Shown here: positions 41,404 to 54,001 of the stretch, one piece after another
Layout of the letters: each line of letters begins with the position of its first letter
Numbering within the stretch: position 1 is the stretch's first letter
NCBI GenBank assembly: GCA_963787835.1
Contig: CAWBEI010000002.1
Span: 704,001-768,000, forward strand
Direction: 5' to 3'
Length of the DNA: 64,000 bases
DNA from: Ignavibacteriota bacterium
Lineage (GTDB): Bacteria > Bacteroidota > Ignavibacteria > Palsa-1295
The notes under the pieces: model-generated
Databases searched by the model: none
What the model saw: the letters and a program-made list of their open reading frames with translations, nothing else
Told to the model about the DNA's origin: nothing
Position numbers and translations under genes: made by a program

Positions 41404-41904
41404 TTACGGATCAACGCGCCAAATGTTAATTGTGATCACGCCGTTCTGCAGCTTTCCCAGTATCCATTGACGGTTACCCTTCATGTAGTCGATATACATC
41501 AGTGTAGAGGCTGTTGGAAGCCCGATCTCTTTCGAAATACTCGCAGCGACCTTCGCGAAATCATCCGTCGATGCATTCGTTCCGAGCTTGCGCGGGTAGG
41601 GAGCAGAAACCTCCGAACTGACCGACATGCCCGAATCGCCAACTACCACCGTGATCTTTGCTGGCATTCCTTCGAAAAGAAGGTGCGCAAAAACAAGTTG
41701 TGTGTGTGGTCTGGGATTGGGTGTGCTCTTACCAAGTGGCGAATTAACGGATCGTTGGCGGGTATCCAACGCGGAGCTTGCGTCCGAGATGAGAGACGAA
41801 TCGATCAAATGCTCCCTGCCAAAAAGCTCAATCGCTTCTTTCTGCGAAATCGGGCGAACCAGGTCGCTTATTGTAATAAGTTTGGGTTGCACTGAAATCT
41901 GCAA
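41404..41904 (-). CDS. Hypothetical protein (may start at 41977 if one base of the run at 41929-41934 is removed)
   Basis: 166-aa ORF co-oriented with msrA; no recognisable motif. Confidence 0.5.
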
Positions 41905-42070
41905 TGCACCCCCTCCGTGTGGCCCGATAAAAAAGCCAAAACGCTGAGAAAAAAGCCATTCGTAACATCGTACTCATAGGCTGTTAAACATTTTGCAGGC
42001 TACTGGGTTCAAATCAATCCGCACGAGGAATGCGAATTAGAACAATGAGCATCAAAAATTCATAAAAGGC

Positions 42071-47438: not shown

Positions 47439-50400
47439 ATGGATTACGCGGATTTATTCCAAACTGTCATTCCCGCGAACGCGGGAATCCAGTCCCTTGC
47501 CCTACGTGCGATACGTCTTTCCACCCTTCTCTTCTTACTTCTTACCTCTTACTTCGTACCTTCCGCAAAGGCCTATTGGCAGCAGCATGTCTCTTATGAC
47601 ATCCACGCCACACTGATCGATTCCATCCACACATTGGATGGATCGCTCTCGGTCGTCTATACGAATAATTCGCCGGACACGCTGCGGGAAGTATTCTTCC
47701 ACCTCTACGCCAATGCCTTCCAGCCCGGCAGCATGATGGATGAACGCGCCCTTGTGGTCCACACCGCGCCAGTCTATGACCGCATTCATAAACTTCCGGA
47801 ATCCGAATGGGGAAAATATTGGATCAATTCGGTTACTGCCGATCAGCAAAATGCCACGTTCGAAATAACTGGCACGATCATGCGTGTCGCGCTGGCTGAA
47901 CCACTCGCCCCGGGTGCATCCACTACGATCGCCATGCCCTTTCGCGAACAAATTCCCAGGCAGATTCGCCGAAGTGGATGGATGTCCGCTGAAGATGTAG
48001 AATATTCTATGTCGCAATGGTATCCAAAAGTGTGCGAATACGATTTCGAAGGCTGGCACCATCAGGAATATATTTCGAGAGAGTTCTATGGCGTCTGGGG
48101 TGATTTTGATATGGAACTCACCGTGCCCTCTCGTCTCATTGTCGGGGCAACAGGAACGTGCATGAATCCTTCCGAAGTCGGACACGGCTACGAACGGATT
48201 GCGGCCGGCGAAAAAGAGGGACTCGTTCAACCCAACCCCAATCTTCAGGGAATGACGACATGGAAGTTCCACGCATCGACCGTCCATGATTTTGCATGGG
48301 TCGCTGATCCTCAGTACGTTCATGAGTGGACGACGTGGCAGGATTCTATCACCGTTCACGCCATATACAAACGATGGGTACAGCGATGGTGGCAAAAGAG
48401 CGCGCTCGCCTATTCCATCCACGCACTCTCCACCTACAGCGAGCTTTACGGCCCTTACGCCTACCGGAATTTTTCTTGCACGATGGCCGGCGATGGCGGC
48501 ATGGAATATCCGCAGCTCATTATGATCACGGGATACCGCCCAGCGCCGATTTCGCTCGCCGGGGTCATCGCACATGAGGTGGGACACCAATGGTTCTATG
48601 GCATGCTCGGCTCCAACGAAACGCGGGAAGCATTCATGGATGAAGGATTTACCAGCTACGTCACCACCATCGCCATGAATCGGCTGTTTGGCGATTCGCA
48701 GGAGTATCCCGGCCAAAAACATTCCTGGCTTGATTGGTTTATCCCCACCTTTAGTAATAAGCGCGATAATTATCGCGGCTATCAGCAAATAGCTTCCCGG
48801 GGTTACGAAGAACCCCTCGATATTCCGCACGATTGGTTCCGTGAGGACGCAACGGCAGGACAGGTCTATGGCAAAACACAAGCGATCCTCTCCATGCTGC
48901 AATACACCCTCGGCGATTCCACGTTCGCGGCTGGAATGAAAAACTATTACTGGGAGTGGCGCTTCAAGCATCCGCATCTCACCGATTTCAAGAACGTGAT
49001 GGAAAAAACCGCGCACACTGATCTTACATGGTTTTTCGATGAGTGGTTCAAGACAACGCGGACGGTGGATTATGCGGCGGATGGAGTCGAATCTTCCTCC
49101 TCCTTAAGAAGGAGGGGGCCACGGGGGTGGTCTTGATTCAGAGAAGGGACCACCCCCAACCCCCTCCTTCTTAAGGAGGGGGAGTATGTTACTACCGTTA
49201 CACTCCACAATAATCAGCTTGCTGTTATGCCGCTCGATCTGCTCCTGCATTACAACGATGGCACATCCGACGCCGCGACCATTCCGCTTGCAGTAAATAA
49301 AGATCTCGATTATCACAAAGATGGCGTCAGCCTGTTCTTCCCAAGCTGGGATTGGACCGCACCACAATATACCGGTTCCCTCATCACGCCAAAACCCGTT
49401 TCCTGGTTTGAGATCGACACCTCCTGGCGCTTGCAGGATCTGAATTGGCTGAATAATTACAGTACGCTTTTACCACCGGGCGAATGGGTTTTGTGGAAAC
49501 AGCTTTTTCTCAATCCGCCAATTGATAAATATTATGCCGTAGTGCGGCCAATTGTGTGGCCAGATTATTATTCGTTATGGGATGTTGGGGCTGGAATTAA
49601 ATATGGAATGAACAATAGTTTTACAGGGGATTTGAAATTGATGTACACCGGCTATACGGTTGCTGGACCGGACAATGCCGTTCCATGGTATGATGACGTT
49701 GATGCCGCGCTTTTATTCAAGGCTCCTGTTGACTGGCTTGGAAGGCTTTCAGCCTTTGATATTGATGCAGAAAAACTGTACGGTATTTCCACGATCCGAG
49801 CGGAAATCACAAAAACATTCCGGCCAGAATTCTGGCGGCTTGGTGGTTTGCAATCTGCTTCGTTCTATGTCGAAGATCAGCAACTTGTGGATAATAAGGA
49901 ATTTTATCCGGTCTGGCATTCTGGATGGGGCGAACGATCTTTTTTTGATGGAGAAGTTGGAATTATCGTCCCCTATGGAATGCATACTCAAGTTTCCGGA
50001 CTCAAATATTCCATCGCAAGCGAGGGCGGCGAAACGCATTTCGATATGTTCGGCGAATCTAGCATTCTCAATTCCGATGCTACATTCTCGCGCGCGGAGG
50101 CTACGTTTAACAGTACTCTGACCCTCCAGAAAGATATGAGCGCCCATATCAGGCTTGCCGCCGGCATCGCAAGTTCCGGCACGCCTTATCAACGCGAGTT
50201 CTGGCTCGACCGCGCCGATAATTACGAAGAGCAGAATAATGGTTTTTATCGAGCTGTCTCCAGTATCAGCGAACCGTTTAGCCAGAATACTTCCATGTTC
50301 ATCAATGGCGGCGCTGGCGTTCGCGGGTACAATGCAGGAAATGCCGCAGAAAATATTTATGGCGATCAAATGGCGGGAGCCAGTGTAGATCTCAATCTTC

Positions 50401-50678
50401 CCAATCCCCTTTCGACGATTTCGGGATTTTCGGCAATCACCCCCGGTATATTTCTGGATGCCGGATGGATCGAAAACGATTCACTTCGTGGCGACGCCGG
50501 AATTAAATTCGATGTAAATATTCTTTCTTGGCTTCCTAATCAACTGCGCGGCGTAGCAGAAGAATACGATAAAATTCCTACCATGGCTGTGAATTTCCCA
50601 TTATACGAAAACCTTCCGCTCGATGGCAAAGCAAATTTCGCATTCAGGTGGGCTGTTTCAATTGGTGCAGCCTTTTGA
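47439..50678 (+). CDS. M1 aminopeptidase fused to Omp85-like barrel, interrupted by in-frame TGA (49134-49136)
   Basis: ORFs 47439-49136 and 49227-50678 share one frame; GGMEYP and HEVGHQW...DEG motifs; C-terminal GVRGY, FLDAG; ends GAAF. Confidence 0.8.
47466..47491. repeat. dRS3/RPE-like palindrome GTCATTCCCGCGAACGCGGGAATCCA
   Basis: ATTCCC-N8-GGGAAT at 47469-47488, translated as VIPANAGIQ. Confidence 0.75.
49094..49184. repeat. Intragenic paired REP-like palindrome (CCTCCTT/AAGGAGG family)
   Basis: CCTCCTTAAGAAGGAGGGGG..GGGGGTGGTC / GACCACCCCC..CCCCCTCCTTCTTAAGGAGG; the TGA lies in the central loop. Confidence 0.9.
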
Positions 50679-50699
50679 TAATCATGGATTTATTATTAC

Positions 50700-50801
50700 G
50701 TCATTGCGAGGAGTCCCGGAGGGACGACGAAGCAATCTGTTGAGATTTACCTGTAATGCATGGGATTGCTTCGTCACCCCTTCGGGGTTCCTCGCAATGA
50801 C
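50700..50801. repeat. Paired inverted REP/RPE-like element (GTCATTGCGAG family)
   Basis: Same termini and GACGAAGCAATC/GATTGCTTCGTC cores as 29804-29929. Confidence 0.85.
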
Positions 50802-50821
50802 ATTATTCATAAATATCGACT

Positions 50822-53800
50822 ATGCGTCTATTCCTTGTCATAACTTTTTGCATCGTGGCTGGGCTGGAAGTACCATCCTACGCCCAAACCTCCGCCACGG
50901 GGATTCCCTATTTTCAGCAGCAGGTCCATTACACACTTGCTGCGAAATTCAATGACGATTTCGCCAATCCATCCATTGATGGCACCGGTTCTCTCATCTA
51001 CACCAATAATTCGCCGGACACGCTGCACGAACTGTACTTCCATCTCTACTGGAATCTCTTCAAAAGCGGCAGCTATGGCGAGACCGCACCGGAGCGCGAT
51101 CATTCACCGGACTCGAAATATGGGCATGGTGGGATTGATATAGAATCTTGTAAGCGAGAAATAATAATTGGGCCAACTGTTGACGTCATGCCCGGTGGTG
51201 CGAATCCAGTGCCCCTAAGATATGAGATTGACAATACTATCATGCGAGTATTTCTCGATAAGCCACTTTACCCACGAGGGAAGATGACTATAAGGTTCTC
51301 TTGGCACGGCCTCCTCCCCAACTACGGCATTCGTTCCACCTGGGGATGGCACGATAACGGCGCGCGCAGTTTTGCGACAGCACAGTGGTATCCGCAAATA
51401 TGCGTGTACGATAACCACGGCTGGCACCCCGACCAATATATCGGCATGGGCGAGTTTTATACGGATTATGGCTCGTTCGACGTATCACTGACTCTACCGG
51501 AACGATTTTCGACGGTGGTTTCTACCGGTTGGCAAACCAATCCTGAAGAGACGCTGCCGGATTCTGTGCGTGAACGTCTCGCATTCGCCAAAGCGCATCC
51601 TGATTCCATCGTTCGCATTGCGGATTATTCTGATTTTCAGCCATTTCGAATCTCGAAGGACGCACCAGCGCAGACCTGGAAGTTCCATGCCGACTCTGTC
51701 CGTGATTTTGCGTGGTGCGCTGATGAGGCCTTTATTCGAGACGCCGTCTATGATAATGGCATCATGCACAATGCTTTGTATTGGGAAAATTCCCGCGATT
51801 TCTGGTCGAAGGAAGCCGCAAAAATAGAATTGCTGACCATCCAGACCGATTCGAAATTTGCGGGGCAATATCTCTATCCCAATATCTTCATGTGTGAGAC
51901 GTACGAAGGCGGGATGGAATATCCCGGTATCGTTTTTATTGGCCCGTATTCGGATGGCTCGCGCGATCACGACGCACAGAACACCATGATGCACGAACTC
52001 GGACACCAATGGTACCCGATGATGATGGGTTCCAACGAAACCGATTACGGCTACATGGACGAAGGCTTCAATACCTTTATCACCACCTTTGTGCATGAAA
52101 AATATTTCGGAAGGTGGAATAATTCGTACGGCCCGGGACTGGGCTATAACGATGACGAACGAACGGATAATTATCGCACCGCTCTGTTGCAGCAGCTCTC
52201 CGGCAATCAGGAACCCACCAAGCAAAAGGCCGACCTATATTATAGTTACCGCGATTATGCGGATGCGACGTATCCACATCCCTCGAGCGTGTTTTTTATG
52301 CTGCGCTACACGATGGGTGATACGGCATTCGCTGATTTCATGAAGCTGTATTACGAGCGCTGGCGTTTCAAGCATCCCTACCCCGACGATCTGGAAAACG
52401 CCGCCGAAGACATCGATCGCCGCGAAGGCGATACCAACCGCGTCCGCGCGCGCGGCGATCTCCGCTGGTTTTTCAACGAATGGTTCGAGCAAACCTGGAA
52501 GCTGGATTACACGGTGAGCAGTTTTCATACGACCCCTCGCCTTACCCTCTCCCCTAATGGGGAGAGAGAATTCGATGTGTCCGTTACCATCGAGAAGTTA
52601 CAGCGCGCCGTTATGCCGCTCGATCTCGTGTTCACCTTCGACGATGGAACGACAGAACAAAAATGGATCCCCGTCGATGATTGGCTACGGACTGTTGCGG
52701 ATGAGCGAAGCTATACCTACACCTTTTCGAAGCAGCCAACCAAAGTTGAGATCAATCCCTCGCGTGAATTGCTCGATGTCAATCGGCTGAATAATACCAG
52801 CTCGTGGATTCCGCCGTTGGAGGTTGGGCTCGTCCCGAGATTTTTTGGAGATGTGAAACCGATCGACGAATATGCAGTGCGATCCTTACCGTTTATTGTG
52901 CCACAATCGGTCTTCCAGAATTGGACTGTTGGCTGGACGCTGCTCGGCAGCTATCTCGAACGTAGCGACCGAATTGCATTCGGCATTCGCGAGAATACCA
53001 ACGATCTGAACTGGATCCCTGGTATGGTCACACAATATCATACAGTACTGGACTGGCTCTCGCCGTGGACCGATCTCGATGTCGCCGGTCTCATTCATAC
53101 CCAGAACGAGGAATTCTTCGGGATGCAAATGAGTCAGGCTGTTTATGCTCCGGGGAGCATGAAGGCGCGGCATATCTTCAATGCCGGGTATGATCTTTCC
53201 GGGTACATCGTGTCGAAGCAACCCGCCACGCTCGATCCGGATGGTTCCCTTGCATCTCCAATTCCATTGCTGAACCGCGTCACCGCTGGTTATACTTTTT
53301 ATGACGATGAAACGATAAATCAGTTCAGCGTTGCAGCAGAGTTCGAAAGCGGCGTAGGCGATCCGAGAACAACGTATTCGAAACTTGCTGCCCTCGTCGA
53401 TGACCGCGTGCTGCTGGGTCCGGACTGGAATGCATTCCTTCGATTTTTCGGCGGTAGTATGCAGCCAATAAATGGCAATATCCCCACGCAGACACTCTTT
53501 CAACTTGGTGCTTCGAGCGATCTCGATCAACTCAGCGATCTCTATGCCTCGAATTTCGGCAGCACGGACCGGGATAAAATTCGGAATGCGACGATGAGTG
53601 GTCCGTTCGTGCGGGGATATTTAGTCGATGCGAACAACTATGGCCGCGTTGCCGCAAGCGGGACGTTCGAGCTTGGCAATCAATCGCTTTTTCCATTCTC
53701 CTTCCTTACGGATATTCCTTATGCCGGCAAAGTGTTCGATATGTTCGGCCTCAACCTATTCGGCGACGCAGGATTTGTTACCAATGTCCTCAGCCGAGGA

Positions 53801-54001
53801 GATTTGCCTGGTGTTATTAAGAGCGATCTCGGGATTGGACTTCGATTTTTCGGATTCAACAAGTACGCGCATCGAACAGGGAATTTCGATCTCGACCGAT
53901 CCGATATTCAGATCGATTTTCCCTTGTATCTCGATAAGCCCGAAGATGGATCTAAAAAGCTCGCCCTCCGAGCTGTTGCGGTCGTGAGGCAGGATTTTTA
54001 A
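50822..54001 (+). CDS. M1 aminopeptidase fused to Omp85-like barrel (intact paralogue)
   Basis: Signal peptide; YFQQQVHY, AQWYPQ, GGMEYP and HELGHQW...DEG motifs; GPFVRGY, FGDAG; ends RQDF. Confidence 0.88.
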   Translation: MRLFLVITFCIVAGLEVPSYAQTSATGIPYFQQQVHYTLAAKFNDDFANPSIDGTGSLIYTNNSPDTLHELYFHLYWNLFKSGSYGETAPERDHSPDSKYGHGGIDIESCKREIIIGPTVDVMPGGANPVPLRYEIDNTIMRVFLDKPLYPRGKMTIRFSWHGLLPNYGIRSTWGWHDNGARSFATAQWYPQICVYDNHGWHPDQYIGMGEFYTDYGSFDVSLTLPERFSTVVSTGWQTNPEETLPDSVRERLAFAKAHPDSIVRIADYSDFQPFRISKDAPAQTWKFHADSVRDFAWCADEAFIRDAVYDNGIMHNALYWENSRDFWSKEAAKIELLTIQTDSKFAGQYLYPNIFMCETYEGGMEYPGIVFIGPYSDGSRDHDAQNTMMHELGHQWYPMMMGSNETDYGYMDEGFNTFITTFVHEKYFGRWNNSYGPGLGYNDDERTDNYRTALLQQLSGNQEPTKQKADLYYSYRDYADATYPHPSSVFFMLRYTMGDTAFADFMKLYYERWRFKHPYPDDLENAAEDIDRREGDTNRVRARGDLRWFFNEWFEQTWKLDYTVSSFHTTPRLTLSPNGEREFDVSVTIEKLQRAVMPLDLVFTFDDGTTEQKWIPVDDWLRTVADERSYTYTFSKQPTKVEINPSRELLDVNRLNNTSSWIPPLEVGLVPRFFGDVKPIDEYAVRSLPFIVPQSVFQNWTVGWTLLGSYLERSDRIAFGIRENTNDLNWIPGMVTQYHTVLDWLSPWTDLDVAGLIHTQNEEFFGMQMSQAVYAPGSMKARHIFNAGYDLSGYIVSKQPATLDPDGSLASPIPLLNRVTAGYTFYDDETINQFSVAAEFESGVGDPRTTYSKLAALVDDRVLLGPDWNAFLRFFGGSMQPINGNIPTQTLFQLGASSDLDQLSDLYASNFGSTDRDKIRNATMSGPFVRGYLVDANNYGRVAASGTFELGNQSLFPFSFLTDIPYAGKVFDMFGLNLFGDAGFVTNVLSRGDLPGVIKSDLGIGLRFFGFNKYAHRTGNFDLDRSDIQIDFPLYLDKPEDGSKKLALRAVAVVRQDF
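52532..52570. repeat. Intragenic single REP-like hairpin
   Basis: CTCTCCCC-TAAT-GGGGAGAG at 52547-52566, in frame as TPRLTLSPNGERE. Confidence 0.7.

What the first reader, a model, noticed from the sequence alone, without database searches (positions are those of the whole stretch)
49094..52570. Palindromic repeats inserted into the same protein loop of two paralogous peptidases, one placing a UGA in a hairpin loop
Seen: paralogue 1 reads VDYAADGVES[SSSLRRRGPRGWS*FREGTTPNPLLLKEGE]YVTTVTL..AVMPLD. The bracket is an about 90-bp double palindrome that preserves frame, with TGA at 49134-49136 in its central loop. Paralogue 2 reads LDYTVSSFHT[TPRLTLSPNGERE]FDVSVTI..AVMPLD, with a related single hairpin at the equivalent position. 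Known: Rickettsia palindromic elements insert in frame into tolerant protein loops. Inference: this loop is an insertion hotspot or an ancient insertion. The UGA could be a pseudogenising mutation, a read-through switch between soluble and barrel-anchored enzyme, or an assembly error in a hairpin.
Basis: partly seen in the sequence, partly recalled or inferred. Interest (0 to 1): 0.7.

Follow-up and report, generated by a model that had tools for sequence, protein, structure and literature searches.

The report
Triplex repeats reuse one peptidase loop
Two neighbouring peptidase genes of a soil bacterium each carry a small mobile-type DNA repeat, in frame, at the tip of the same predicted surface loop, which related species fill with other repeats or leave empty; the stop codon reported inside one repeat is likely a sequencing error, not a recoding switch.

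Summary
The inserts are real; the UGA probably is not. A short-read contig of the same strain crosses the element and differs from the window only by a -1/+1 pair either side of the TGA. That reading opens one 1,079-codon frame and restores the repeat family's usual spacing. None of 146 homologous loops holds a stop; no tRNA-Sec or SelA was found. This rests on one contig of depth 3.9.

Both inserts are BoxC/PIT intrastrand-triplex repeats, described as intergenic in E. coli. Here 20 of 31 copies of the paralogue-1 type lie inside long reading frames. The loop is the first beta-hairpin turn after the M1 catalytic domain. It is empty in most orthologues and in the outgroup, and filled in scattered lineages, once by an unrelated GTAG-REP. 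So it is reused, not an ancient shared insertion. TsaD and GatA loops behave the same way, so the peptidases are not special.

Triplex units lie beside 33 of 46 DUF559 nuclease genes, the candidate mobiliser (untested). The scan had found this link and such reused loops before on other DNA. Verdict: new variant of known in-frame palindromic insertion; interest 0.42.

The parts
47439..50678 (+). Paralogue 1: M1 metallopeptidase with beta-sandwich domain and a likely outer-membrane barrel; split by the TGA in the window, one 1,079-codon frame as read in the X1 contig (start codon uncertain)
   Evidence: PF01433; orthologue frames about 910-1150 aa, no stops, apart from contig-edge cases
49094..49184 (.). 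Inverted pair of triplex units (tails inward) with a 16-bp spacer, in the loop of paralogue 1
49096..49131 (+). Triplex unit 1 (pyrimidine block, purine block, G-rich third block); the only genome copy of this type with an 11-base linker, the commonest being 10
49134..49136 (+). TGA; in frame only in the window's reading, likely an assembly artefact between two single-base indels (49122, 49152)
49148..49182 (-). Triplex unit 2, inverted; one G shorter in the linker than the other GTTG-type copies
50822..54001 (+). Paralogue 2: intact 1,059-aa M1 metallopeptidase of the same architecture
52534..52568 (-). Single triplex unit, one substitution and one deletion from the E. coli TM_ECO consensus, read in frame on the + strand; forms the beta-hairpin turn in the model
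   Evidence: confirmed by an X3 contig

Best explanation
Both inserts are copies of dispersed BoxC/PIT-type triplex repeats sitting in frame at the predicted first beta-hairpin turn after the peptidase domain, a loop that was likely filled independently several times in this genus, and the TGA is likely a two-indel assembly error in an intact gene. Shown: repeat class, genome-wide copies, empty and filled states across relatives, and the contig that reads through. Inferred: the repeats are gene-less, non-autonomous units spread from DUF559 nuclease cassettes. The paralogue-1 pair has the tails-inward layout of such a cassette without its gene, but it may instead have grown from a single unit, as found at this site in two relatives. 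Inferred: insertions land widely and survive where a surface turn accepts 10-25 extra residues; four of six frames of the unit are open, and a loop once lengthened is easily overwritten or swapped between relatives. The peptides are likely neutral passengers. Odds by step: TGA artefact about 0.88, recurrent filling about 0.85, DUF559 as mobiliser about 0.45.
For: TGA: X1 contig 49000-49557, 0 substitutions, indels at 49122 and 49152. Over 19.9 kb, 99 contig pieces of runs X1-X3 laid at 97% or more list only 1 substitution and 3 indels. Two of the indels are these; the third (41929, in an A run) gives another frame an ATG and a hydrophobic start when read as in the contig. The contig reading gives both units the 3-base second loop that is commonest in the genome (22 of 41), one CCN and one TTN, as in E. 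coli inverted pairs (PMC4666352 section 18). It also reads the GATTC behind unit 1 as Asp-Ser, as in two relatives with a single unit here (L003, L153). 0 of 146 homologous loops hold a stop. Class: all three units fit the published class II pattern. Loop: strands 215-224 and 236-244 flank the insert in a model with mean pLDDT 90.9, which matches M1 aminopeptidases. Reuse: repeats at this loop in 4 of 18 paralogue-1 and 3 of 16 paralogue-2 genes, against 1 elsewhere in the mature parts (some genes partial). In the paralogue-2 tree with the loop removed, 10 of 36 parsed loops are long, six are sister to an empty loop at support 0.989 or more, and all 5 parsed outgroup loops are empty. G005 has an exact GTAG-type REP there (22 copies in that genome). 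DUF559: unit within 250 bp at 33 of 46 loci; 67 units in 25,157 bp near against 16 in 84,157 bp farther; random places in the genome 14 of 3000.
Against: Read-through of the TGA rests on one contig in one run at depth 3.89; X2-X5 show no piece across it, and no raw reads were available. The window's sequencing platform is unknown to me. Four paralogue-2 alleles in different clades share the same junction (ERE[YF]D), which fits allele swapping or common origin as well as independent insertion. Repeats also sit in the signal-peptide regions of both paralogues, so the loop is not the only permissive site. 13 of 46 DUF559 loci have no unit by this definition, only 13 of 21 two-sided loci have tails inward, and the genomes are kin, not independent. 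No movement, nuclease activity or translation of the inserts was tested. Four of the ten long paralogue-2 loops could not be assigned to a repeat (three protein only; one with DNA and no motif hit).
Confidence: 0.75

Rival explanations
1. The TGA is real in the assembled population: paralogue 1 is a recent nonsense allele made by slippage or template switching inside the hairpin, and the X1 contig is another allele.
For: Triplex motifs are linked to local instability in E. coli (PMC4666352, passages of section 19). A second paralogue could buffer the loss. Only one contig contradicts the window.
Against: It needs two opposite indels 30 bp apart that restore the frame but leave a stop between them, which selection would not favour. 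Both move the units away from the family spacing. The strains are otherwise nearly identical over 19.9 kb.
Confidence: 0.09
2. The UGA is a programmed read-through or recoding site that switches between a soluble and a barrel-anchored peptidase.
For: UGA at the top of a very stable hairpin with the frame open downstream. Barrel-less M1 homologues of about 620-690 aa exist. Two of 120 homologues carry PF01103, and both genes end in Phe, in line with a barrel.
Against: 0 of 146 homologous loops have a stop. No tRNA with a TCA anticodon among 47 found, and no SelA (genome 97.9% complete, and tRNA-Cys was also missed). TGA ends this same gene at 50676-50678. The five short homologues whose loop could be parsed run 60-68 residues past it and keep the whole beta-sandwich, while this stop would cut it after one strand. 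The one crossing contig has no in-frame UGA.
Confidence: 0.02
3. The loop is actively targeted: the insertion machinery prefers this DNA site, or re-cuts a resident repeat and replaces it, instead of the loop merely surviving random insertion.
For: 7 repeat inserts at this loop against 1 elsewhere in the mature parts, although several other loops vary in length. The window's units match its own genome's sub-family, while relatives have another sub-family at the same junction.
Against: An unrelated GTAG-REP uses the same loop, and heptamer repeats use the GatA loop; one enzyme's preference does not explain that. The empty sites share no obvious sequence (by eye). The loop was chosen because the window has inserts there.
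Confidence: 0.2
4. One insertion predates the duplication of the two peptidases and has decayed or been lost in most lineages.
For: Equivalent position in both paralogues; a shared junction among four paralogue-2 alleles.
Against: Different sub-families and orientations. Empty loops of constant length and conserved sequence in most members and in the outgroup. The inserts are nearly identical to current genome copies while the paralogues are about 35% identical.
Confidence: 0.04

Closest known systems
BoxC / PIT element / intrastrand triplex motif TM_ECO (Holder et al. 2015, PMC4666352; sections 11, 15, 18 and passages read)
   Same: Three-block G/C-rich class II triplex layout, 3-base second loop, dispersed copies, inverted pairs joining a CCN-loop with a TTN-loop unit; the paralogue-2 unit is two edits from the consensus.
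   Different: TM_ECO is always intergenic in E. coli K-12 and was not linked to a mobile element. Here most copies of the paralogue-1 type are inside reading frames, that type has a different stem sequence, and the units flank DUF559 genes.
Rickettsia palindromic elements and intragenic GTAG/CGTC REPs (Di Nocera et al. 2013, PMC3733652, section 15 and passages read; Ogata's papers recalled, not read)
   Same: Palindromic repeats, single or as dimers coding 20-30 residues, in frame in unrelated and essential genes; held to be tolerated in loops and linkers.
   Different: No GTAG or CGTC tag and a third G-rich block. That survey reports inserts at about the same site only for recB of two Xanthomonas species, while here one loop takes different repeat classes across a genus.
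REP/REPIN with RAYT transposase (REPtron; as described in PMC3733652)
   Same: A small enzyme gene bracketed by the repeat, with gene-less single and paired copies spread through the genome.
   Different: The bracketed gene is DUF559 (PF04480; Vsr-like PD-(D/E)XK fold, recalled), not a tyrosine transposase; no activity is known to me.

Membership tests
BoxC/PIT/TM intrastrand triplex repeats | Class II layout: pyrimidine, purine and third block, stem 6-15, loops 1-6, at most one mismatch | tested here: met
   All three units fit, stems 8-10
BoxC/PIT/TM intrastrand triplex repeats | TM_ECO sequence consensus | tested here: inconclusive
   Paralogue-2 unit: 1 substitution and 1 deletion. Paralogue-1 unit 1: no match within 3 edits, so a variant sub-family; unit 2 not scored separately
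BoxC/PIT/TM intrastrand triplex repeats | Dispersed multicopy, above shuffled background | tested here: met
   41 units in the genome; 33 on C2 against 0 on shuffled C2
BoxC/PIT/TM intrastrand triplex repeats | Intergenic location, as reported for E. coli K-12 | tested here: not met
   20 of 31 type-A copies inside frames of 200 aa or more; random places 2206 of 3000
BoxC/PIT/TM intrastrand triplex repeats | Triplex formation by CD or NMR | not testable with these tools
   Needs oligonucleotide spectroscopy
Rickettsia palindromic elements | In-frame insertion absent from orthologues | tested here: met
Rickettsia palindromic elements | Sequence similarity to RPE families | not tested
   No RPE sequences in hand; Rfam gave only sub-threshold microRNA hairpin hits
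Rickettsia palindromic elements | Insert translated in the protein | not testable with these tools
   Needs proteomics; open frames in single-copy tsaD are indirect support only
GTAG/CGTC REP with RAYT | GTAG or CGTC tag at the end of the palindrome | tested here: not met
   Flanks of 46 copies read by eye: often ACTC-like, no such tag
GTAG/CGTC REP with RAYT | Cognate tyrosine transposase bracketed by the repeat | tested here: inconclusive
   10 Y1_Tnp hits; two have one type-A copy 260-450 bp away on one side, none was seen bracketed; flanks looked at for 2 of 10
Selenocysteine or programmed UGA read-through | tRNA-Sec and SelA in the genome | tested here: not met
   (assembly not complete)
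Selenocysteine or programmed UGA read-through | Stop conserved in orthologues | tested here: not met
   0 of 146 loops; none
M1 metallopeptidase (PF01433) | Peptidase_M1 domain with HExxH...E motif | tested here: met

The most novel reading that the evidence does not exclude
BoxC/PIT triplex repeats are the ends and gene-less offspring of a mobile element built on a DUF559 nuclease. In this genus they enter coding DNA about as freely as chance allows and keep rewriting the same few protein loops, including those of essential enzymes, so loop sequence is set by turnover of mobile DNA and by allele swapping. The paralogue-1 pair would be a collapsed cassette.
Probability: 0.35. Interest if true: 0.72.

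Novelty: new variant of a known kind. Interest (0 to 1): 0.42.

Why it matters
The recoding idea, which gave the finding its high first score, falls away, and the case is a warning: stops inside G/C-rich hairpins in long-contig assemblies can be paired indel errors that keep the frame. What remains is a clear natural example of a protein loop being filled, emptied or swapped by unrelated repeat classes within one genus. It also gives BoxC/PIT repeats, which have had no known function or mobiliser since the 1990s, a testable candidate enzyme in DUF559. I found no paper on that link: searches 'DUF559 + palindrom' and 'DUF559 / inverted repeats / mobile element', listings only; most subscription papers are not in the library.

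Tried and rejected
No RNA holder listed, so nothing on expression. Runs X2-X5 show no piece across the TGA. The second X1 contig with the same two indels belongs to another genome copy, by its loose ends, and was not counted. Rfam: only sub-threshold microRNA hits. Single-sequence fold of paralogue 2 failed (pLDDT 31.9); the alignment-based fold of residues 349-694 was used instead. PDB sequence search found only leukotriene A4 hydrolase at E about 1e-5. The concatenated IQ-TREE run timed out; only single-gene FastTree trees were read. A first loose unit definition under-detected (5 of 15 loci); the two-pattern scan gave 16 of 30; one search is the count reported. The hairpin-energy scan along the genes was too noisy to count inserts. 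Patterns D2, E and F were recalled motifs, gave mostly chance hits or none, and were dropped. No earlier finding resembled this stretch by sequence. A Y1 transposase as mobiliser was considered but not supported. Restart after the TGA: the first in-frame start is inside the conserved AVMPLD strand with no Shine-Dalgarno-like run.
Full report
Setting. The window lies in a 3.57-Mb, 7-contig genome. Public records of close homologues are labelled Candidatus Kapabacteria or Kapaibacterium. Two tandem genes, 47439-50678 and 50822-54001, encode M1 metallopeptidases (PF01433). Both end in Phe, and 2 of 120 homologues carry the Omp85 barrel family PF01103, so the C-terminal barrel is likely but was not modelled.

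The observation. A 91-bp inverted repeat (49094-49184) adds 24 codons to paralogue 1 and has TGA at the top of its stem; a single hairpin adds 11 codons at the equivalent place in paralogue 2. A model of paralogue 2 residues 349-694 from a 104-sequence alignment (mean pLDDT 90.9) puts the insert between strands 215-224 and 236-244, the first hairpin after the helical catalytic part. The model matches M1 aminopeptidases such as IRAP and PepN.

The UGA. Five public DNA runs hold parts of the stretch. One contig of run X1 covers 49000-49557 with no substitution and two gaps: one base fewer at 49122 and one C more behind 49152. Read that way, the gene is one 1,079-codon frame. Four lines favour the contig. 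First, over 19.9 kb, 99 pieces from X1-X3 list only one substitution and three indels, and the third indel, in an A run at 41929, also improves a reading frame. Second, unit 1 of the window is the only copy with an 11-base linker, where 10 is commonest (20 of 34 rows, some of them spurious), and unit 2 is one G short of its sister copies; the contig removes both oddities. Third, two relatives with a single unit at this site read the following GATTC as Asp-Ser, the contig's frame, and another genome copy is read in that same frame inside a recombinase gene. Fourth, none of 146 homologous loops has a stop. Against this: it is one contig at depth 3.89, and no raw reads were available. Long-read assemblies are known to gain false frameshifts and stops (PMC12007338, abstract in listing), but the platform here is unknown to me. 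Recoding has no support: no tRNA-Sec among 47 tRNAs, no SelA, and the short homologues that could be parsed keep 60-68 residues beyond this loop.

What the repeats are. An earlier scan note suggested the name BoxC/PIT; I tested it. Each unit is a pyrimidine block, a purine block that pairs with it and a G-rich third block. All three fit the class II triplex definition of Holder et al. (PMC4666352, sections 11, 15, 18 and passages). The paralogue-2 unit is two edits from the E. coli consensus; the paralogue-1 units are a variant sub-family, found by exact pattern in all 14 other genomes of the genus. In E. coli the motif is always intergenic, and inverted pairs join a TTA-loop with a CCG-loop unit; the contig reading gives the same pairing here. 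Unlike E. coli, 20 of 31 type-A copies lie inside frames of 200 aa or more, close to the 73.5% expected at random, while two other palindrome families of this genome are depleted (3 of 23 and 3 of 47). Of 19 host frames scanned, 17 have Pfam families, among them TsaD, UvrD, CoaBC, an amidase (GatA-like) and ribonucleotide reductase. I checked orthologues for two of them only.

Is the loop special? Recognisable repeats sit at this loop in 4 of 18 paralogue-1 and 3 of 16 paralogue-2 genes, with one more elsewhere in a mature part and several in signal-peptide regions (some genes partial). One of the seven is an exact GTAG-type REP, an unrelated class. On a paralogue-2 tree built without the loop, 10 of 36 parsed loops are long (4 of 40 not parsed), six are sisters of empty loops at support 0.989 or more, and the outgroup is empty. 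This rules against one ancient insertion. It does not separate repeated insertion from allele swapping, since four alleles in different clades share a junction. The behaviour is genus-wide. The TsaD loop holds repeats in 8 of 14 readable genomes and the GatA loop in 8 of 14 readable loci, by triplex units, GTAG pairs or heptamer runs, all in frame (classed by eye; one locus unreadable in each set).

Candidate mobiliser. Both DUF559 genes of this genome are bracketed by triplex-type repeats. Of 46 DUF559 loci (the 30 fetched and 16 more from the genus, out of about 90 listed), 33 have a unit within 250 bp and 21 on both sides. Unit density is 67 in 25,157 bp near against 16 in 84,157 bp farther, and random places score 14 of 3000. 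In 13 of 21 two-sided loci the inner units face inward, like the paralogue-1 pair. In relatives DUF559 is read in one frame with RNase H-like, RecQ-like and another protein through repeat-like linkers (names by eye). The genomes are kin, and no activity was tested.

Mechanism, as committed. Triplex units, likely shed from DUF559 cassettes, insert widely; four of six frames of a unit are open. Copies survive where a surface turn accepts them, and such loops are then overwritten or exchanged. The peptides are likely neutral.

Comparison and novelty. In-frame palindromes are known from Rickettsia and from intragenic REPs (PMC3733652, section 15 and passages). Triplex repeats inside genes, their link to DUF559 and reuse of one loop by several classes were not found in searches (listings only, apart from the two papers named). 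I did not open the supplements of either paper; their tables of intragenic elements and triplex positions may bear on this. The scan's own notes report the DUF559 link and reused loops in other genomes; they are unchecked notes and were used as leads. Verdict: real inserts, likely false stop, new variant of a known kind, interest 0.42.

Noticed in passing
window 41929: An X2 contig has one A fewer in an A run; read so, the minus-strand frame 41407-41982 gains an ATG and a hydrophobic N-terminus. Likely a second assembly indel.
   Followed up: partly
window 47466-47491: A palindrome of another family (47 copies in the genome) lies in frame in the predicted N-terminus of paralogue 1, also in L149 and L228; no in-frame start codon was seen between it and the signal peptide.
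   Followed up: partly
window 50858-50881: The signal peptide of paralogue 2 looks like a decayed GTAG-REP (5 mismatches by eye); closer copies read GLEAPTY at this place in several relatives.
   Followed up: partly
window 50695-50806: Inverted pair of a third palindrome family between the two peptidase genes; many copies in the genome, mostly outside genes.
   Followed up: partly
L110 (G000:C2:1483000-1484000) and L086: Both DUF559 genes of the genome are bracketed by clusters of triplex-type repeats; those on C5 carry an extra hairpin in the linker.
   Followed up: yes
L308:970-1854, L309:945-1835, L310:1155-2468, L311:42-1355, L312:1803-4001: DUF559 read in one frame with an RNase H-like protein, a TPM-like membrane protein or a RecQ-like helicase through repeat-like linkers (names by eye).
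   Followed up: partly
L111-L125 and L132-L148: TsaD and GatA loops carry triplex units, GTAG pairs or heptamer runs in different species, always in frame.
   Followed up: yes
G001 and G006: tsaD and gatA matches are split across short frames in these two long-contig genomes, suggesting indel errors in them too.
   Followed up: no
G000, all contigs: At least four triplex sub-families whose three blocks change together, indirect support that the triplex, not the sequence, is conserved. Units are concentrated on C2 (33 of 41 units on 54% of the bases).
   Followed up: no
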